Source of the DNA: Octopus sinensis
Lineage: Eukaryota
DNA length: 13,445 nucleotides
Direction of reading: 5' to 3'
Assembly (NCBI RefSeq): GCF_006345805.1
Contig: NW_021826158.1
Location: 1 to 13,445, forward strand
The notes under the pieces were generated by a model, which made no database searches, had not been told where the DNA came from, and saw only the letters and a program-made list of their open reading frames with translations. Below are positions 1 to 12,332 of this stretch, one piece after another (within the stretch, counting starts at the first letter, position 1; each line of letters begins with the position of its first letter). A program made the position numbers and the translations under genes.

Positions 1-404
1 CCTTGGCTATGTGGTATGGTTTGTTGTGATGCTCTTATTTTCACTGTATGGAAAGTGTTTTACGCAGGATGTGTGCAGTGCCTAGTAGTGCTATTTTCCG
101 TATGTTATATATATTTGTTAGCCCGGGTGTTTTTGTTATGTATTTGTCTGAATATTTTTTTATCATGCCTAATGCGCCTACTATGATAGGAATTGTTTCT
201 GTTTTTAGACTCCACATTCGAGTTTCTTCTATTTCTAGGTCTTTGTATTTTGAAAATTTCTCCATTTCTTTTAGAGACACGGTGTCATCTGCTAGTATTG
301 ATACATCAATTAGAAAGCAATTTTTCTTCATGATCTCTGACAACTATATCTGGCCTATTGGCCTTAATTTCTCTATCTGTGTGTATTGGCATATCCCAGA
401 GTAT
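1..404 (-). mobile_element. 5'-truncated R4/Dong-like (RLE-clade) non-LTR retrotransposon fragment: C-terminal restriction-like endonuclease, frameshifted; 3' UTR runs off the window
   Basis: Minus strand reads ILWDMPIHTDREIKANRPDIVVRDHEEK, then after a frameshift near 320 CFLIDVSI..KEMEKFSKYKDLEIE..W..IPIIVGALG..stop at 41-43. These are the RPD / D / K..KY motifs of RLE domains. The 5' end abuts a (TAT)n run at 403-424. Confidence 0.88.
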
Positions 405-469: not shown

Positions 470-920
470 TTTATAACCTTTACTCGATATATATGTGCGT
501 GTGTGTGTGTTATCACCTTTATTCGATATATAAATATATACATATATATATATATTATTATATATATATATTATATAATATATATTCTATATATATATAT
601 ATATATATAAAATCTGTACATCACCTCCAATACTTCTAACATATATATATATCGAGTAAAGGTTATAAACCTCATTAAGGGATCATAAGATCCAATGAAA
701 ATACTGGTTAGTTACCAATCTATAGAAACATCAACTATAAGTTAACCATATGAACCGTGTATGAACTTGTATTTCTAATCGGTATATCCTGACTAACTCT
801 GAAGAGATTCATCTTATAATCATTTTAGTTTTATAAATTAATTATCTAAATATATCTGAATCGAAACAGCTGTCAGAGATGTTGTCATATTTTATAATTA
901 ATAAATAATTTTATCAATTA
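470..920 (+). mobile_element. Penelope-like (pLTR-type) non-coding fragment with a short inverted duplication and a hammerhead motif
   Basis: 25-bp inverted repeat tttataacctttactcgatatatat (470-494) / 645-669 flanks a (TA)-rich tract; hammerhead core at 799-874. Boundaries approximate. Confidence 0.5.
797..876 (+). ncRNA. Minimal type I hammerhead ribozyme motif (long loop II)
   Basis: CTGAAGA 799-805; stem II GATTCA 806-811 / TGAATC 857-862; GAAA 863-866; palindromic stem III ACAGCTGT; GUC cleavage triplet ending 874. Stem I is weak (CT/AG). Confidence 0.7.
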
Positions 921-976
921 CCTCTCTCTTTCTCCTTATTCTTTAAATATAGATATATACATAGTTATATATACAT

Positions 977-1015
<39 letters not shown>

Positions 1016-1137
1016 TGTAAGCTTATAAATATGTACATAAACAATCAAAAATTTATTACAGCATCACTCAATACAAGAGTAGAGATTCTATTTTGAAAAG
1101 TAAGAACCTAGTAGTTCCTTTCTGTTGCTTTTATCTA

Positions 1138-1170
1138 CAGTCTGAAGAAGCCAATGAGGCGAAGTCACTG
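1138..1170 (+). ncRNA. Decayed minimal type I hammerhead motif
   Basis: CAGT-CTGAAGA-A-GCC-aatga-GGC-GAA-GTC-ACTG. Stems I (CAGT/ACTG) and II (GCC/GGC) are intact; GAAGTC equals GAAACGTC with 2 nt deleted. Confidence 0.55.
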
Positions 1171-1200
1171 GCAAATTTTCTTCCCTCTCACCCCATAGTA

Positions 1201-1289
1201 TTTATAAATATATGCATTTATACATACATACACACACACACACACATATATCTATATATATATATACATATATATATACATATATATAT

Positions 1290-1325
<36 letters not shown>

Positions 1326-1516
1326 GTATATCTATATACATATATATATATACATACATATATATCTTTGGTAGAATGACAGGGAGGAATAGAAACTAAT
1401 ACATGAGTACATATATAAATATAAGTGTTGCGTTTGCGACGTGTACACATCTTTATATACCTAAGTATATAAAACTTCAGCCGATATATATTATATATAT
1501 ATGTATATCTATTATA

Positions 1517-1556
<40 letters not shown>

Positions 1557-1557
1557 C

Positions 1558-1589
<32 letters not shown>

Positions 1590-1781
1590 ATGTATATATA
1601 TATATATTATATTATATATTATAAATATATACATATATATATATATGTATGTAAGTGTATGTATGTATATAGATATACATGTATAACATATATATATATA
1701 TATTCACCTATATATATATATATACATAAATACTTATATATATGTACATACATATAATATATGCATATACATATATATTTT

Positions 1782-1831
<50 letters not shown>

Positions 1832-1960
1832 AGAGAGAGAGAGTCATATATCTAAATACACAAATTTTATTTATATATGTGCATATATATACACAGACAT
1901 AAACACAGACACACACACACACACGCACGTACACACGCACACACATACACAATCGCGTAG
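1201..1960. repeat. Compound microsatellites (TA)n/(CA)n/(TG)n/(GA)n with short spacers
   Basis: Directly visible; source of the YIYI/CVCV pseudo-ORFs. Confidence 0.95.
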
Positions 1961-2444
1961 ACACCTAAGAACAACGCAAAACAAAAGAGAAAACAAAATG
2001 TAATAAAACGGATATACACGAAGGAAAGAAAAACCACAAAACAAAACAAAAAAAACAATCGAAATAAAATAAAAATACAAGTGAAAAACTAAATAGACGA
2101 GTAATAAAACACAAGAAACCAGTGACGTGGAGGTCGAGTAAAAGGGGGAATTATGGTAAAGAAATGCATTAGAAGAGCGTTAAAAACAACATTGTGAAAG
2201 AAACTAGTAAAGATATAGGAAAATGTAAAGTTGATTTGGAAGGTGATAAATACGAAACTACGGCTGTTGTATATATTATTGTAGTCATTGGGAATTCAGT
2301 TGCTCGGTAAACGAGCTCATAAAGGTTCTCTAATTAGTGTATATATATAAAAGTTAGCAGAATTCACTCAAACTTATTCAGCTCTGTAGCTTCTCCTGAG
2401 CGTCCGGAAGTAAAGCTATAATGTTTTATATTCGCATCTGTTTT

Positions 2445-2747
2445 GTGTGTGAGTGTACGCACATATGCTGCGTTATGTTAGGTTTGATGGTCTGAATGTA
2501 TGAATGAATGAATGAAAGAATGTATCTGTGTATGTGTGCGTGCGTATGCATGCATTAATATATGTATGTAGGTGTGCGTATGTATGTATGTATGTATGTA
2601 CGTACGTGTGTGCGTGTGTTGGATTTGTGGAGAGAAGAGGTGTAGATATCTACAGCTAACGATGTCTGAATATGTATATCTGTTTGTGTGTATATATATA
2701 CATATATATACATACTGCATACTTTATTTTTGTATATATGCACATGC

Positions 2748-2783
<36 letters not shown>

Positions 2784-3039
2784 ATGTATATATGTGTATA
2801 TAAGCGTGTATATACATATATACATATATATATGTATATATATATATACATTTGGGCATACACACACGCACACACTCACATATGTGTGTGTGCGTGTGTA
2901 GACATACGCAGGCGTACATATTGATATGCACGCGCAAAATGTAGTCATGAATACATCAAACACCCAAACATATTACATACATTCATATACACACACATAC
3001 ATACATTTATACGTACATATATATGTGTTTGTATTTGTG

Positions 3040-3073
<34 letters not shown>

Positions 3074-3145
3074 CGTATGTATATATGTATATATACATGT
3101 ATATACACATGTGTGTATATATATATACATATATACTCACACACA
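2445..3145. repeat. Compound microsatellites (TGAA)n, (TATG)n, (TG)n, (TA)n
   Basis: Directly visible. Confidence 0.95.
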
Positions 3146-3534
3146 GGCACAAGGACCCGGGAACAGGAAGTGCATGTGGTGCGCTTCCACCCGTTAAAAC
3201 TTTTAGGTGTTTGCAGAATCAAAATTTGCACCTGCTACATACATTGCCTGGTTTAGAAGTGTCTAGAAATTGATGGGTAAAATGTAGAAGTTTGGTTTCT
3301 TCTCAAAACAAGAACAAAGGACAAAAATAAATTGATAAAAAGAAGTTTAAAATGTTTACTGATGAAGCTGGTCATAAAATTCCCAAGAGAATTCTAGAAA
3401 GATACACGACGGAACCAAAGCATTATCAACATCAAAATTAAAAGTGTGTATGTATATATATATATATATATATATGTGCGCGTGTGTGTGTGTGTGTGTG
3501 TGTGTGTCTGTGTGTGTGTATGTGTGTGTGTGTA

Positions 3535-3873
3535 ATGGATAATAAAACGAATGGTTTACATCTGGTCGCTTACTGGTTAAGCACGGTCACTTGCTGAGTG
3601 ATCGTTGGGTAAATAACAAATGAAAGACGGATGAAGAATTTTCCTCTGTTTGGGTGTTTTTCTCTCTATAAAACAGAAAGTTGCATTGTAGAACGGTCAT
3701 TTTAACGAGTTTGTTTTATTTATTTATCATCCGACGAGATATGTATGCAACACCGGATGCTCCCGAACTAGTTGTTGTGTGTCCCACAAGAGGAGTCGAT
3801 GCTTGATGTGTCGAAACAACTGTTGTGATTAATATATTCTCGTATATTTCATCTTCTGTCTTTCATTTGTTAT
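3535..3873 (+). mobile_element. Old Penelope-like non-coding fragment with degenerate hammerhead and 16-bp inverted repeat
   Basis: ataacaaatgaaagac (3613-3628) is the exact reverse complement of 3858-3873. CAC-aagagga...C-GAAA-CAACTG-TT-GTG at 3785-3827 resembles a decayed hammerhead. Confidence 0.4.
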
Positions 3874-3951
3874 ATATATATATATATATATATTGGTAAA
3901 AGCGGTAAGATAACAAAAGAAAGAGACTTCATATTAATTAAATAGAGGAAA

Positions 3952-3999
3952 TTATATATATATATATATATATAATATATAATACCATATACATATATA

Positions 4000-4038
<39 letters not shown>

Positions 4039-4074
4039 ATATATATATATATATATATATATTATTATATATAG

Positions 4075-4124
<50 letters not shown>

Positions 4125-4140
4125 TGAGAGAGAGAGATAC
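3952..4140. repeat. (TA)n followed by (GA)n microsatellite
   Basis: Directly visible. Confidence 0.95.
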
Positions 4141-4143
4141 ATA

Positions 4144-5169
4144 CAGTTGCGGCCAAAATGTTCAGAACGGCATTGTTTTCGTCAGAAGAGTAGATATAAG
4201 TTTTTATCAAAGTTGTGTTATATTCTATAATTTTCACAGACAATAAATACGTTATGAATTATTATTGTCTGAAATTTTGGTGTAATTTGAGAGGATAATA
4301 CAAAAGTTATGGATGATTTAGTGATTTACTGCAAAACCTATGGCGACTAAAATGATCAGAACGGTTGAAAAAAATAACAAAATAATCAAAAATGACAGAG
4401 AATACTGGAATTATTTAATATTTAGTGTGAAGCCCTTTAGCTTCAATCACACTTTGACATCTTCGACTGCATGAGGAAACTAAATTTTCAATTTCCTGCT
4501 GGGTGATCTTATTCCATTCTTCCTGAAGGGCTTTCCATAATTGCTCGGTTGTTTTAGGATTTCTGGCTTTCGAACGTTCTCCTAGAATATTCCACACATT
4601 TTCAATAGGATTAAGATCTGGGCTTTGAGCAGACCAATCCATAACAATAATCTTTTCAGCCTTGAGAAGGTTCATGACCACCTTAGCCTTGTGACATGGG
4701 GCATTGTTCTGCATAAATATGGGTGATCACTTAGTTGAATTTCTCAGCACAGGCAAGACATGATCTTTTACAAGTTGTTTATAAACTCCTGCATTTACCT
4801 TTCCATGTAATCGCACCAAAGGGCCCACACCATCTCCAGATATCATCCCCCAAACCATGACACTTCCTCCACCGAATTTAACACTAGTCTTAAGGCATTT
4901 AGGCGACAATTTTTCACCTACTTTTCGACAAACGTACATTTTCCCATCTGAGCCAAATAACATAAACTTAGATTCACCACTGAAATGTACCGTTTGCCAT
5001 TTTTCTTGAGACCACAACACATGTTCGGTTGCAAAGATAAGACAACAATAACAATTAATATTGTATTTATTGTGTGTGAAAATTATAGAAAATAAAACAA
5101 CTTTGATAAAAACTTATACCTACTTTTCTGACGAAAACAATGCCGTTCTGAACATTTTGGCCGCAACTG
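4144..5169 (-). mobile_element. Tc1-family DNA transposon (DD34E, IR/DR type), internally deleted and non-autonomous
   Basis: Termini CAGTTGCGGCCAAAATGTTCAGAACGGC (from 4144) and its reverse complement (ending 5169). TA TSDs at 4142-4143 and 5170-5171. Inverted homology of ~130 bp (4144-4270 / 5040-5169). Transposase remnant inside. Confidence 0.95.
4415..5030 (-). pseudogene. Tc1 transposase catalytic domain, inactivated
   Basis: VHFSGESKF (D1 to G), GGGSVMVWG, in-frame TGA at 4727-4729, MQNNAPCH (D2 to N), QSPDLNPIENVW. 34 residues separate the D2 position and E. The N-terminal HTH region is deleted. Confidence 0.93.
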
Positions 5170-5231
5170 TACATACAAATTTCGCTGCGAATGATTTTGT
5201 TAAGTGGTGTCGAGTTTTACAATCCTGTAAA

Positions 5232-5432
5232 TAATAATCATGGCACTTTTTTACAAGCGTAAAGCTTATAGGGGTCACCGTGCAAACGACTAAGGAAAAT
5301 AGTCTAATAATGGAGCATATAAACCCCTCGACAGAAAAAAAAGTAGGCTTTGCTGTACGCGTGGTATTCGAACCCACATCTCTTTACAAAAGCAACTACG
5401 AACCGCTTAACAAAATCATTCGTACCGAAATT
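5232..5432 (-). mobile_element. tRNA-derived SINE-like repeat, copy 1
   Basis: Minus-strand B-box-like GTGGGTTCGAATACCAC followed by aaagcctacT-run; clearly homologous, in inverted orientation, to ~5640-5790. Confidence 0.55.
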
Positions 5433-5472
5433 GATGCTTGTATATATCTATTTCTTTATATCTATCTATCTA

Positions 5473-5542
<70 letters not shown>

Positions 5543-5611
5543 TTATCTATCTCTTTACAAAAGCAACTACGAACTAATGTAGTTCTTAAATATTTCAGAA
5601 AGGAACAGGCT

Positions 5612-5790
5612 GGTTCGCTGAGGTAATGGGTAACACAGTCGCGTTAAGAAAGGGATGTCGGTTCGAGTCCCACGGGTACGGGAAAGCCTACTTTTTTCTG
5701 TCGTGAGGGTTTATATACCCTTTTATTAGACTATTTTCCTTAGACATTTGCTTGGTGATCGCTATAAACTTGTAAAAAGAGACCATTATT
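5612..5790 (+). mobile_element. tRNA-derived SINE-like repeat, copy 2
   Basis: A-box-like TGAGGTAATGG at 5619-5629; B box GGTTCGAGTCC at 5660-5670 in a T-arm-like stem; T-run from 5692; 3' body shared with copy 1. Confidence 0.6.
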
Positions 5791-5792
5791 TT

Positions 5793-5827
<35 letters not shown>

Positions 5828-5834
<7 letters not shown>

Positions 5835-6500
5835 TCGCCATACTAATATGGCATTCTTATAAAAATAAGAATAAAGCTGTCCGCTTATTAGCTCCATGAG
5901 GCCATCGCCTTAAGTAGCTATTTGATACACAACTGTATCCATATAACCTTCGAACAAGGGAGGTCAGTCGCTCCACACTACTTGATCGACAGCTACAGAC
6001 GCGTTTCGGGGTATTGCCCCTTTTCAATGTAGCGTAGTCAGACCAGTAGGTGTCGCTTCCGACAATCTCTGTTCGAAGGTTTTATTTACCTAGTTTCAGT
6101 GGAATGCATCCACTTGTTTTCAATAATAGAAATATTAAAATTACTAAGTCTCTCTAAAAGAGATCACGGCAGCGTTCCTGGAAAATAATAGTTATCGCCA
6201 TACTAATATGGCATTCTTATAAAAATAAGAATAAAGCTGTCCGCTTATTAGCTCCATGAGGCCATCGCCTTAAGTTAGCTATTTGATACACAAACTGTAT
6301 CCATATAACCTTCGAACAAGGTTATATGGATACAGTTTGTGTATCAAATAGCTAACTTAAGGCGATGGCCTCATGGAGCTAATAAGCGGACAGCTTTATT
6401 CTTATTTTTATAAGAATGCCATATTAGTATGGCGATAACTATTATTTTCCGGGAACGCTGCCGTTGTTCTCTTTTAGAGAGACTTAGTAATTTTAATATT

Positions 6501-6503
<3 letters not shown>
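5828..6503 (-). mobile_element. Young Penelope-like/retrozyme-like non-coding element: ~1.4 tandem copies of a 360-bp unit plus a fold-back inversion
   Basis: Direct repeat 5828-5959 / 6188-6321 (period 360); palindrome 6128-6312 / 6318-6503; hammerhead at 5992-6033 on the minus strand; flanked by (TA)n and (TC)n(TA)n. Confidence 0.8.
5992..6033 (-). ncRNA. Minimal type I hammerhead ribozyme, U3-A8 core variant
   Basis: Minus strand: GCTACA-TTGAAAA-GGGG-caata-CCCC-GAAA-CGCG-TC-TGTAGC. Perfect 6-bp stem I, 4-bp stem II, palindromic ACGCGT stem III, GUC site. Confidence 0.85.
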
Positions 6504-6585
<82 letters not shown>

Positions 6586-7346
6586 ATAGCAGCAACAAGA
6601 AGAACCAGAGCGACATGGCCAGCAATTACGGCCACTCCTCAAAACTGGCACAATTGACTACCGATTAAACTCCACAATGAAAAGCCATTCACTATCTTGC
6701 TATTCGCATTCTTCATCTTCTCTGAATGCTACAACTGACCCATCATCTTCATCATCATTACCATGTTACTACCATAACCACTACTACTACTCTAAGTAGT
6801 GAAGAATCACGCTTTTCTCCTCTCGCCCTCCCCCCTCCCCACCTCAGTCTCATTGTATACCTCACAGCTCCATGAGGAATCTGCCAACTATACTTAAAGT
6901 AAAATCTATAAACGTATGAAACCCCTAAAATATGCCAGTTTTCTCAACGTAAGAGATTATGCACACGCAGTAGCTGTAATTTCACTCATTTGACTGCAAT
7001 AAGATGCTCAACTCGTATAAGCAACACCAGCCAATGCCAAAGCGCACATCTTATTCTACCACCGCCACTACCACTACCACCACCACCTCGCTAAGTGATT
7101 TTTTTTCCAATTGTTTCCTTGTCATTCCTCTGTGTAATTTTTAATGTCTGTCTGTTTGTCTCACTTTGTGTGTGTATATATATATATTCTTTTACTCTTT
7201 TATACTTTAACTTGTTTCGGTCATTTTACTACGGCCATGCTGGAACCTTGTAAGGATTTAGTCGAATGAATCGACCCCAGTACTTCTTTCTTTTTATTTA
7301 CATTATTTACATTGACGGATGTTTGTCCTCATCTTGTTTGTCGTTA

Positions 7347-7390
7347 ACACAACGTTTCGGCTGATATACCCTCCAGCTTTCATCAGGTGT
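7347..7390 (-). ncRNA. Minimal type I hammerhead motif
   Basis: ACAC-CTGATGA-AA-GCTG-gagggtatat-CAGC-C-GAAA-CG-TT-GTGT; palindromic AACGTT; the stem II closing position is an A.C mismatch. Confidence 0.65.
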
Positions 7391-7445
7391 CTTGGGGAAA
7401 TTTCGAACCTCGGTTCTCATTCCTAAGGTATTTTTCGATGTTGTT

Positions 7446-7498
<53 letters not shown>

Positions 7499-7499
7499 G

Positions 7500-7543
7500 A
7501 CACCTGAAGAAAGCTGGAGAGTATATCAGCCGAAACGTTGTGT
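7500..7543 (+). ncRNA. Minimal type I hammerhead motif (inverted partner)
   Basis: ACAC-CTGAAGA-AA-GCTG-gagagtatat-CAGC-C-GAAA-CG-TT-GTGT. Confidence 0.65.
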
Positions 7544-8049
7544 TAACAACAAACAAGATGAGGACAAATATCCGTCAAATGTAAATAATGTAAATAATGT
7601 GCATAATTCCACATCTCTTAAATATATTTCTTTTTGCTTTCTTTAAAGCCTGGCACTTATTCTATCGAACTCTTACTGTCGATCCGCTCAGTTACCGGGA
7701 TGTAAACACACGAACGCCGGTTGTCGAACCGTGATGTGATAAGCGGGGTACAGATATATTGTATTTTCCTATCTGATAATGATGTCGAACAGTAAGTTTT
7801 TACAAATTAATCAAAAATGATTAAGATGTTCTCTTTTCTAATATGAAATTCTTGATCTGCTTGCACTTTTCAACTTTTTTCTTTTATTATCAACTCTGTG
7901 TACTATGTCAAGTCCACCAGAAGCAAAAATGATGGAAATTTCGGATTTCTTCGGTACTGCATCATTATGATAATGCACGACCTTTGGAGATTGCAGTGAT
8001 GCAGTTCAGCGAAAAAATTAATGGTAAAGCACTTCCAACATGACAAGAA

Positions 8050-9989: not shown

Positions 9990-11050
9990 TAAACATATGA
10001 GCATGTCTGGAAAGTTTTACAAATTTTTACAGATCTGTAGTCTTCGAATTAGGTTTCTCCTTTCTGGTTTTGAGAAGCCTAATTTTTCAAGATTGGTATT
10101 TCGGCAGTGGGTTACGTATCCCAGGACCCTAATAATTACAAGTATAAGCATGAAATTGTAACCTACATATAGTAACTGCAAATTTCTCAATAGTTCAGCG
10201 TAGGTATTCTCTTTTTCACAGATCTTCCTCTTTACAGCTGATTTCCACAACTGTACACAGTGTCTCTTCTCTATCCCAAATTATCATATCAGATCTGTTG
10301 TGCTTACATTTTATTGACGTTTTCACTGGGACATTCTACCAGTACTCCTCTTTATTATGAGTGGCTATGGCTTCTACCATACTGTGGGTTCTTATTTTTT
10401 TCTCCTCAGAGTTATCCTTACGATGGATTTCATTATAGAGTGTCCTAGCTACAACGTCATGTCTCATCGGTAGATAATACCGTGATGACATTTTCGGACA
10501 CACTGCTTATGATGTGGATGATATCTTCGGTGTTAACTCCACAAAGTCTGCATCAGTTATCACATTGTTCTGCTTTTCCTGCATCTCTGTCCCTTTTACA
10601 CATCAGGTATTAGGTTGATATTTCCTGTTCCTGGATTGCAAACGCATGCACTTCGAAGTGGAAGTTAGAAATCCGGTTATTGGTCCATGATAGACTGCTT
10701 TGATGATTGATGTTACTATCATCCCGGAGCTTTCTACTAACATATCCATGCAGGGTCCTTTGCTGATATACGCTCATCCTCTCATCTGATGATAAGCTGC
10801 AGTAGAATCGTGCGACTTCCTTCGGCATTTCTTTAATGTTATCAGACAAAGAATGTTGCTCAAGGAGCTGCTTTCCATGTCTTATGATGTCATCAACCAC
10901 ACGCATGCAAACTTGGTCAAGGGATGTACTTTGACACTTGGGGGTTAACAGATATTGCCGAATGGATATGATGCGATATTCAAGGGCATTTTGGGTCGAT
11001 GTTAAGCCTCTTCCCCTTGTTTTCGTTTTAGGTAGAGGCGGTCTACGTCA
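9990..11050 (-). mobile_element. 5'-truncated, degraded R4-like/RLE-clade non-LTR retrotransposon (post-RT region, CCHC knuckle, RLE)
   Basis: DVDRLYLKRKQG..RGL near 11049-11005; LHG..; FAIQEQEI; CRLCGVNTEDIIHIISS(C) at ~10552-10500; RHD; HNRSDMIIWD..VEIS..KEN.Y..L..IIRVLGYV. Multiple stops and frameshifts. Confidence 0.88.
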
Positions 11051-11955: not shown

Positions 11956-12021
11956 CTAGCTGAAGGTGATCCGCTCTACGCGCGGGTAAGAGTGTGGTTG
12001 TAACTTTCTGTTGCTTCCTTT

Positions 12022-12332
12022 CAGCACGTAAAAAGCACCATCCGAACGTGGCCGATTGCAGCACCGCCTTGACTTGCTTCTGTGCCGGTGGCATGTAAAA
12101 AGCAACAACCGATCGTTGCCGCTGCGAGCCCCTCTGGCACCTGTCTCGGCAGCACGAAAAAAGCACCCACTACACTCACAGAGTGGTTGGCGTTAGGAAG
12201 GTCATCCACCTGTAGAAACACTGCCAGATCAGACTGGAGCCTGGTGCAGCCTCCTGGCTTCCCAGACCCCGGTCACACTGTCAACCGTGCTAGCACGGAA
12301 AACGGACGTTAAACGATGATGATGATGATGAT
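12022..12332 (+). mobile_element. 5'-truncated Octopus-type SINE with RTE-like 3' end and (GAT)n tail
   Basis: Three internal gca(c/t)g(t/a)aaaaagca units (~12025, 12091, 12152); ggttggcgttaggaagg.catcca.ctgtagaaa; tail gctagcacggaaaacggacgttaaac(GAT)6. Recognised from memory. Confidence 0.8.

What the first reader, a model, noticed from the sequence alone, without database searches (positions are those of the whole stretch)
797..7543. Six minimal type I hammerhead ribozyme motifs from about five unrelated non-coding elements within 7 kb
Seen: (C/T)TGAN(G/A)A-stem II-GAAA-palindrome-TH motifs at 797-876(+), 5992-6033(-), 7347-7390(-) and 7500-7543(+), plus decayed ones at 1138-1170(+) and 3785-3827(+). 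Stem sequences differ between families while the architecture is constant. Established: minimal hammerheads with a palindromic stem III occur in Penelope-like pLTRs and non-LTR retrozymes and are thought to cleave as dimers. Inference: this genome hosts a diverse, high-copy set of ORF-less ribozyme-bearing retroelements that insert into microsatellites and are invisible to ORF-based annotation.
Basis: partly seen in the sequence, partly recalled or inferred. Interest (0 to 1): 0.8.

Follow-up and report, generated by a model that had tools for sequence, protein, structure and literature searches.

The report
tRNA-headed Penelope retroelement with hammerhead
The hammerhead-ribozyme motifs here are the ends of Penelope-like jumping genes, a known arrangement, but one parent element carries a tRNA-like segment right behind its gene that likely acts as a promoter and has spread as an estimated tens of thousands of short SINE-like copies.

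Summary
Five of the six motifs are real minimal type I hammerhead folds in four repeat families; the sixth (1138-1170) has no family and stays unconfirmed. Minimal hammerheads in Penelope-like elements (PLEs) have been known since 2014.

"ORF-less" is mostly wrong:
- 7294-7626 is an inverted pair of ends of a Poseidon-type PLE; the ribozyme lies inside its first codons.
- 3535-3870 is the 3' end of a Hydra-type PLE, and its core is at 3731, not 3785.
- 641-958 is likely another Hydra-type end.
- Only 5824-6503 is a non-coding 362-nt tandem retrozyme.

Two things are new. First, the Poseidon element has a tRNA-like A/B-box head 29 nt after its stop codon (26 of 30 loci). Short copies start at that head (0 of 59 carry the gene upstream), and the coding strand has no TTTT run (P about 0.05-0.2). 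The head itself is not in this window. Second, in the 362-nt retrozyme 7 of 77 insertion 5' ends sit at the predicted cut site (about 1 expected), which suggests cleavage in vivo.

Transcription and cleavage are untested.

The parts
641..759 (-). Family A: inverted piece of the family's optional 3' extension
   Evidence: 94% to the extension in L047; inverted relation in many loci
764..958 (+). Family A: 5'-truncated end, likely the 3' UTR/pLTR of a Hydra-type PLE, ending at TA repeats
   Evidence: 40 copies; AT-rich upstream extension over 1 kb; Hydra-like endonuclease remains upstream on the same strand in L467, and a short piece in L468
797..876 (+). Hammerhead A: core CTGAAGA 799-805, 6-bp helix II with a long AT-rich loop, GAAA 863-866, palindrome, predicted cut after 874; helix I only 2 bp
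1138..1170 (+). Motif B: hammerhead-like (CTGAAGA, extra A, 3-bp helix II, GAAG-TC, 4-bp helix I); unconfirmed
   Evidence: no family found; post-hoc shuffle rate 1.25%
3535..3630 (-). Family C: inverted piece of the 3' extension
   Evidence: 87-90% to 6 other loci
3631..3870 (+). Family C: 5'-truncated 3' end of a Hydra-type PLE (RT, CxCx5C linker and GIY-YIG upstream in longer copies), ending at (TA)n
3726..3829 (+). Hammerhead C: core CCGACGA 3731-3737 (U4C, family-wide), 5-bp helix II around a long insert, GAAA 3813-3816, predicted cut after 3824; decayed in this copy
5824..6503 (.). Family D: retrozyme insertion; about 1.4 units of a 362-nt repeat on - (6321 to 5824) head to head with a partial unit on + (6318-6503); both 3' ends point into TA or TC/TA repeats
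5992..6033 (-). Hammerhead D: 6-bp helix I, core TTGAAAA (U3-A8), 4-bp helix II, palindrome, predicted cut after 5998
   Evidence: 5' ends of copies pile up here
7294..7497 (-). Family E copy 1: (AAT)n, ATG at 7420, first codons of the Poseidon-type ORF holding the hammerhead (7386-7351); no tail; truncated before the tRNA-like head
7497..7626 (+). Family E copy 2, inverted: hammerhead 7504-7539 plus most of the roughly 30-35-nt optional tail; reads KTPEESWRVYQPKRC in the ORF frame

Best explanation

Shown: E is contiguous with an RT + GIY-YIG ORF on both sides (stop codon, 29 nt, head, (AAT)n, ATG, hammerhead in frame, tail). C follows a Hydra-type ORF. D is a 362-nt non-coding tandem unit. 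E and D have two 3' end classes, and inverted 5' partners are frequent.

Inferred: the PLE protein binds the RNA downstream of the hammerhead, nicks AT-rich DNA and starts reverse transcription at one of two internal sites, which gives the optional tail. The cDNA then stops early or folds back, which gives the truncated and inverted copies. In E, Pol III would start about 3-8 nt upstream of the head, so solo pseudo-LTRs would make short RNAs that are mobilised in trans like SINEs. In D, two hammerheads of a tandem transcript would pair through their palindromes and cut, and the cut RNA would be one of the templates. The window's copies are passive: the E pair lies on opposite strands, and a read-through RNA would form a long hairpin (-104 kcal/mol over 225 nt) rather than a ribozyme dimer.
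For: E linkage: of 30 loci picked on the endonuclease end, 26 have the head and 23 the hammerhead body downstream; four rows are near-duplicates, so 23 of 27 for the head after collapsing. Of 30 loci picked on the head, 27 continue into the hammerhead body. Copies run on into a PLE ORF. A 55%-identical homologue carries RVT_1. None of 59 heads outside the endonuclease-picked set has the gene upstream, against 18 of 21 inside it. E 3' ends: 49 without tail, 35 with tail, 4 other of 88; inverted partner in 20 of 30 and 14 of 30 loci. The same two ends appear as loose ends in contigs of public runs. Head: A box at positions 8-18, B-box G at 53; best match Arg(TCT), 49 identities, z 7.2, among 20 distinct genomic tRNAs. 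D: 3' ends cluster at 171-177 and 228-238 nt after the cut, 59 of 75 next to TA repeats; 7 of 77 5' ends at -2..0 of the cut, P 1e-4 under a uniform model. Genome holds PLE ORFs of 762-883 open codons, and most GIY-YIG loci of one family have their own U3-A8 hammerhead downstream. Architecture matches PMC4209133; tail mechanism from PMC11167929.
Against: No transcription or cleavage was measured. Rfam did not call the head a tRNA; ARAGORN called it only at a relaxed threshold, in 5 of 368 loci of which 4 are the same or duplicated sequence. The head's 5' end coincides with a natural hairpin, which could end reverse transcription without any promoter. No intact E-family ORF among the 150 matches listed (longest open frame 432 codons). 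E copies show no pile-up at the cut site. For D, one of the 7 junctions is explained by helix I microhomology (6 of 77 gives P 7e-4), and other 5'-end clusters exist. The parent of A rests on one contiguous and one partial locus; a Hydra ORF upstream of A in L425 turned out to be a separate insertion. No autonomous partner was found for D. In the anole PLE, hammerhead mutants did not affect insertion in vitro.
Confidence: 0.8

Rival explanations
1. The tRNA-like head in E is a passive passenger: an old SINE head captured in the 3' UTR. The element is read by Pol II, and short copies start at the head only because the hairpin there makes the cDNA stop or fold back.
For: Native hairpin across the head's 5' end; 6 of 59 heads are perfect fold-backs at it; tRNA stems are decayed; the TTTT depletion is marginal.
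Against: A and B boxes are intact and at tRNA spacing while the stems have decayed; 53 of 59 heads are not perfect fold-backs yet start within about 8 nt of the head; natural copies have 0.39 T4+ runs/kb against 2.8-3.5 in three Neptune-type families of equal T content.
Confidence: 0.3
2. One reading: all families are independent ORF-less ribozyme retroelements (retrozymes).
For: True for D: 362-nt tandems, 97-99% identity among the 40 best matches, no PLE protein match in the flanks of 25 loci. Most E copies are short and behave like a non-autonomous family.
Against: E and C are contiguous with RT/GIY-YIG ORFs in many loci; E's hammerhead is in the reading frame.
Confidence: 0.1
3. The motifs are chance matches in AT-rich, repeat-rich DNA.
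For: Possible for motif B only. No Rfam hit. Cores are not better conserved among copies.
Against: Shuffle tests; the same core with different, paired stems across many clusters; position at PLE ends.
Confidence: 0.03

Closest known systems
Minimal hammerheads in PLE pseudo-LTRs (Cervera and de la Pena 2014, PMC4209133)
   Same: Palindromic or absent helix III, extra base after A9, U3-A8 variant, mostly single truncated copies, pairs on opposite strands 100-700 bp apart.
   Different: No tRNA-like head is described in the parts read (1-2 of 4); cephalopods are not mentioned there.
Poseidon element PAc of the green anole (Frangieh 2024, PMC11167929)
   Same: Hammerhead overlaps the ORF start with the cut inside coding sequence; optional 30-40-nt tail; AT-rich targets.
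   Different: The authors assume a pLTR promoter and an mRNA; no tRNA head in the parts read (1-2 of 4). They found no RNA reads at the cut site, whereas family D shows genomic 5' ends there.
Animal non-LTR retrozymes (PMC7229834; bioRxiv 10.64898/2026.07.22.740005)
   Same: Family D: 362-nt non-coding tandem unit with one type I hammerhead per unit; proposed to be PLE-dependent.
   Different: The link to PLEs there rests on co-occurrence and pLTR similarity; here the insertion ends carry PLE marks and 5' ends at the cut site. No partner of D was identified.
Schistosome SM-alpha / Sj-alpha SINE-like repeats (seen only through the review PMC6765202 and passages of PMC8490949)
   Same: Pol III-type promoter plus hammerhead in a short repeat.
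   Different: Described as non-coding tandem repeats; no RT-encoding parent holding the same promoter is named in the passages read. In E the head is part of a protein-coding PLE, and same-strand second copies are rare (1 of 60 loci).
TRIMp3 elements Cassandra, Helenus, Ajax (Kojima 2024, PMC10886601)
   Same: Small-RNA-derived Pol III promoter inside a terminal repeat.
   Different: Non-autonomous LTR elements; the author argues that their autonomous partners must use Pol II. E is a PLE and has the head in the coding element.
Hydra clade of PLEs (Craig 2021, PMC8557442)
   Same: Family C parent: C-terminal GIY-YIG, CxCx5C linker, CxxC and CxH near the end, (TA)n targets, hammerhead.
   Different: Family-wide U4C core; assignment by motif only, no tree built.

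Membership tests
Minimal type I hammerhead of PLEs | Core CUGANGA (or U3-A8 / U4C variant), GAAA, UH, helices I and II, palindromic helix III | tested here: met
   A, C, D, E. Helix I of A is only 2 bp.
Minimal type I hammerhead of PLEs | The same features for motif B (1138-1170) | tested here: inconclusive
   GAAG, no palindrome, no family
Minimal type I hammerhead of PLEs | Self-cleavage as a dimer or with protein | not testable with these tools
   Indirect only: D 5' ends at the site; none for E
Penelope/Poseidon PLE (family E parent) | Single ORF with RT and C-terminal GIY-YIG with CCHH, no CX2-5CxxC linker | tested here: met
   Translations of L248/L249 read by eye; homologue with RVT_1; column-majority frame open for 817 codons in one iteration and 646 in others
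Penelope/Poseidon PLE (family E parent) | pLTR, optional 30-40-nt tail, inverted 5' copies | tested here: met
Penelope/Poseidon PLE (family E parent) | Placement in the Poseidon clade on an RT tree | not tested
   No reference set at hand; label from domain layout
tRNA-derived SINE (short E copies) | tRNA-derived head with A and B boxes at the 5' end | tested here: met
   Rfam negative (84, 85), ARAGORN only when relaxed (86). Box consensus is from my own knowledge.
tRNA-derived SINE (short E copies) | Independent non-autonomous element with a LINE-derived 3' tail | tested here: not met
   The whole unit is the pLTR of a PLE. It works like a SINE; it is not a classical SINE.
tRNA-derived SINE (short E copies) | Pol III transcription | not testable with these tools
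   Only contig-level runs were offered
Non-LTR retrozyme (family D) | 150-450-nt non-coding tandem unit with a type I hammerhead in each unit | tested here: met
   362 nt, dimers and trimers
Non-LTR retrozyme (family D) | Circular RNA accumulates | tested here: inconclusive
   Head-to-tail joint in contigs of 3 guessed-RNA runs, but genomic tandems give the same joint
Hydra-clade PLE (family C parent) | RT, CxCx5C linker, GIY-YIG without CCHH, (TA)n target | tested here: met
   Decayed frames of L401, L408, L419, L422 read by eye; criteria from PMC8557442
Hydra-clade PLE (family A parent) | Contiguity of A with a Hydra-type ORF | tested here: inconclusive
   1 contiguous and 1 partial of 7 loci fetched

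The most novel reading that the evidence does not exclude
Family E is a protein-coding retrotransposon transcribed end to end by RNA polymerase III from a tRNA-derived promoter in its pseudo-LTR. It has purged Pol III terminators (TTTT) from a 2.4-kb coding strand, and its solo pseudo-LTRs amplify as a Penelope-dependent SINE-like class: a link between autonomous PLEs, SINEs and tRNA-bearing retrozymes.
Probability: 0.3. Interest if true: 0.85.

Novelty: new variant of a known kind. Interest (0 to 1): 0.55.

Why it matters
The hammerhead-in-PLE part is known. The tRNA-headed pseudo-LTR matters for three reasons. PLE promoters are poorly understood. In the review passages I read, SINEs are tied to LINEs and Pol III is held too weak to transcribe autonomous elements (PMC10886601). 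And such short copies would be annotated as unclassified SINEs (893 of 900 recently active SINE families are unclassified in a 2026 octopus annotation, PMC13282606). A coding element with a Pol III promoter would show one route by which PLEs give rise to SINE-like and tRNA-bearing repeats. Family D offers a sequence-level test of a standing question, whether PLE-type minimal hammerheads cut in vivo: its young copies appear to record the cut as a 5' end.

Tried and rejected
- Rfam: no hammerhead among the 150 listed of 155 window matches, and no tRNA call on the E head. ARAGORN found nothing in the window.
- My first reading, that E is an independent tRNA-SINE borrowing a PLE tail, was dropped when the head was found behind the stop codon of the coding element.
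- A first extension query (L011) was unique to its locus.
- Neptune-type ORFs next to C copies (L291, L298) were unrelated neighbours. The Hydra ORF near A in L425 is a separate insertion.
- Motif B: three searches negative; the DNA search skips common words, so absence is not shown.
- Core conservation within families: no signal.
- 5'-end pile-up at the cut site: not seen in E, A or C; peaks there at -111, -82 and +38 are alignment-edge effects of the reference copies.
- Expression: no RNA holder listed; only contigs of guessed-RNA runs, so no start, end or level can be read.
- Pfam did not recognise the N-terminal 237 aa of E, P0002, or two LINE-like window frames.
- No structure or complex prediction was run.
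- Literature: ten searches listed no paper describing a tRNA head in a PLE pLTR, judged from titles, abstract starts and the passages opened. Luense 2017 and Ferbeyre 1998 were not held. Ohshima and Okada 1994 (three octopus tRNA-derived retroposons), Repbase and Dfam were not seen, so the short E unit may already have a library name. No supplements were read; those of the bioRxiv preprint and Craig 2021 file S1/S2 could bear on novelty.
Full report
Setting. The window is a whole 13.4-kb contig of a 2.72-Gb animal genome, G000. Repeat content and size look octopus-like; that is my inference, not a call result. 'Candidates' in genome searches are not copy numbers, and only the best 40 DNA matches are scored, so the family samples lean towards good copies.

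Observation. A descriptor (core, helix II, GAAA, palindrome, UH, helix I) finds 799-874(+), 7504-7539(+), 7386-7351(-) and, with two core changes allowed, 6027-5998(-). Strict settings give 3 hits against 0.003 per shuffle in 300 shuffles. The 5998 core TTGAAAA is fixed in the family and is the U3-A8 variant of PMC4209133. The motif given as 3785-3827 is only the 3' half of a longer fold. Its core is CCGACGA at 3731, paired through GATAC/GTGTC and ATCAC/GTGAT in the family. U4C is a known weak but viable variant in a viroid (passage in PMC3088659). Motif 1138-1170 has no relatives. Across 473 loci plus the window, a descriptor that also allows U4C gave 224 hits: 15 clusters with two or more distinct copies, some of them subfamilies, and 16 singletons. 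In 400 kb taken at round coordinates on the large contigs there were 4 hits against 0.3 in shuffles.

Family E (7294-7626). The search gave 2148 candidates. Copies share a tRNA-like head, (AAT)n, the hammerhead and a variable 3' end; 27 of 30 head-picked loci continue into the hammerhead body. Two copies ran past the usual end, and one translated like a PLE N-terminus. Searching with it retrieved copies running into RT and GIY-YIG coding sequence. In near-full copies the order is ATG, hammerhead in frame, ORF, stop, 29 nt, head, (AAT)n, ATG, hammerhead, tail. Of 30 loci picked on the endonuclease end, 26 have the head and 23 the body; L261-L264 are near-duplicates, leaving 23 of 27 for the head. 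So E is the pseudo-LTR of a Poseidon-type PLE, and the window's copies encode its first codons. Both window copies are truncated before the head. No intact ORF was among the 150 matches listed; copies average 93% to the column majority, whose frame was open for 817 codons in one iteration and 646 in two others.

The head. It has TGGCGTAGTGG at 8-18 and GTTCGATTCC from 53, the tRNA positions of the A and B boxes (consensus from my own knowledge). It aligns best to Arg(TCT) among 20 distinct genomic tRNAs of six amino acids (49 identities, z 7.2). Rfam misses it; relaxed ARAGORN calls Ser(ACT) in a few copies. None of 59 heads outside the endonuclease-picked set has the gene upstream; they begin at about -8 to +1, and 6 are perfect fold-backs. 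The E body occurs in 5 of 40 stretches of 10 kb, and the ORF's 3' end in none. By my arithmetic that is about 34,000 loci (Poisson range roughly 11,000-79,000). Short head-started copies therefore dominate, as expected of Pol III templates, although a natural hairpin at the same place is a rival cause.

Terminator test. The sense strand has no run of four or more T in two natural copies (2355 and 2440 nt) or in the column majority, against 8-9 per 2.3 kb in four Neptune-type ORFs of equal T content. Expected counts are 2.8 by codon resampling (P(0) 0.048), 2.4 by Markov-1 (0.094) and 1.6 by Markov-2 (0.20). Natural segments give 0.39 per kb against 2.8-3.5. Homologous proteins are also Phe-poor, so part of the gap is a clade trait. 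This is suggestive only.

Family D (5824-6503). A 362-nt unit in monomers to trimers, 97-99% identical among the best matches, usually head to head with a truncated inverted copy and often with a 68-nt overhang. No PLE protein match lay in the flanks of 25 loci. 3' ends fall in two classes about 62 nt apart, 59 of 75 beside TA repeats. Of 77 distinct 5' ends, 7 lie at -2..0 of the predicted cut (1.1 expected; P 1e-4), joined to different inverted partners (6 shown). One is explained by helix I microhomology (6 of 77: P 7e-4). Looser clusters occur elsewhere, so the uniform model is generous. I read this as likely, not proven, cleavage in vivo. Contigs of three guessed-RNA runs hold the head-to-tail joint, which genomic tandems also give.

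Families C and A. Longer C copies extend into decayed RT, a CSCRDKSKC linker and GIY-YIG, matching the Hydra clade criteria in PMC8557442. A has more than 1 kb of AT-rich upstream sequence; one of 7 loci fetched shows a Hydra-like endonuclease upstream on the same strand and one shares a short piece of it. Both window insertions have an inverted piece of the 3' extension in front.

Mechanism. Internal priming at two sites explains the optional tail; the hammerhead was dispensable for insertion in vitro and cut only with protein (PMC11167929). Minimal hammerheads cut weakly and only as dimers (PMC4209133). Applied here by inference: PLE proteins made all four insertions; Pol III likely feeds E; dimer cleavage likely processes D. 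The genome holds long open Neptune-type ORFs that are candidate helpers for TA-targeted D; this is untested. The inverted E pair in the window cannot supply a dimer in cis and folds as one hairpin.

Against my reading. No expression or cleavage data; no excess core conservation among copies; no cut-site signal in E; the tRNA call is weak by standard tools; the parent of A is thin; no partner for D.

Literature seen. Parts 1-2 of 4 of PMC4209133 and of PMC11167929; parts 1-3 of 5 of bioRxiv 10.64898/2026.07.22.740005; term passages of PMC8557442, PMC7229834, PMC6962438, PMC8490949, PMC10886601, PMC6765202, PMC8969392, PMC4758252, PMC13282606 and PMC3088659. Luense 2017, Ferbeyre 1998 and Ohshima and Okada 1994 were seen only as citations. 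Ten searches (listed under Tried and rejected) gave no report of a tRNA head in a PLE pLTR. Three unchecked notes from this scan describe tRNA-bearing, ribozyme-free, non-coding repeats with PLE-type insertions in other genomes; they are leads, not support. E differs in having both a hammerhead and a coding parent.

Verdict. The finding as posed is a known phenomenon with a partly wrong reading. Following it gave a new variant: a Poseidon-type PLE with a tRNA-like head in its pseudo-LTR and SINE-like solo copies, plus a young retrozyme that appears to record its own cut. Interest 0.55.

Noticed in passing
window 5189-5400 and 5554-5790: Family F: inverted pair of a repeat with an internal tRNA-like segment (relaxed ARAGORN: Thr in 9 of 25 loci), partial tandems and inversions like a PLE-dependent element, no hammerhead seen; 1226 candidates.
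   Followed up: partly
window 3731-3737; L403, L406, L347, L355, L364: U4C cores (CCGANGA) with paired helices recur in several unrelated families of this genome. It may be a lineage-level natural variant; chance hits among the singletons were not excluded.
   Followed up: partly
window 4142-5171: Tc1/mariner-like element with 127-nt inverted repeats and a DDE_3 hit.
   Followed up: partly
window 1-400 and about 10050-10950: LINE-like coding fragments by eye (R4/Dong-like label recalled); Pfam gave no hit on the two frames tried.
   Followed up: partly
L219, L226, L232, L235, L244: Recurrent junction from ORF codons near 'CRCRDS' back to the start of the hammerhead body, giving a roughly 330-nt tandem unit; possibly a retrozyme being born from family E.
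   Followed up: no
L143, L144, L153, L156-L159, L166, L170: Neptune-type PLEs (some with long open ORFs) carrying a U3-A8 minimal hammerhead in the 3' UTR; candidate active helpers.
   Followed up: partly
window 7190-7290 and about 11990-12320: Pieces of other high-copy SINE-like repeats, by eye; the first directly abuts the E insertion.
   Followed up: no
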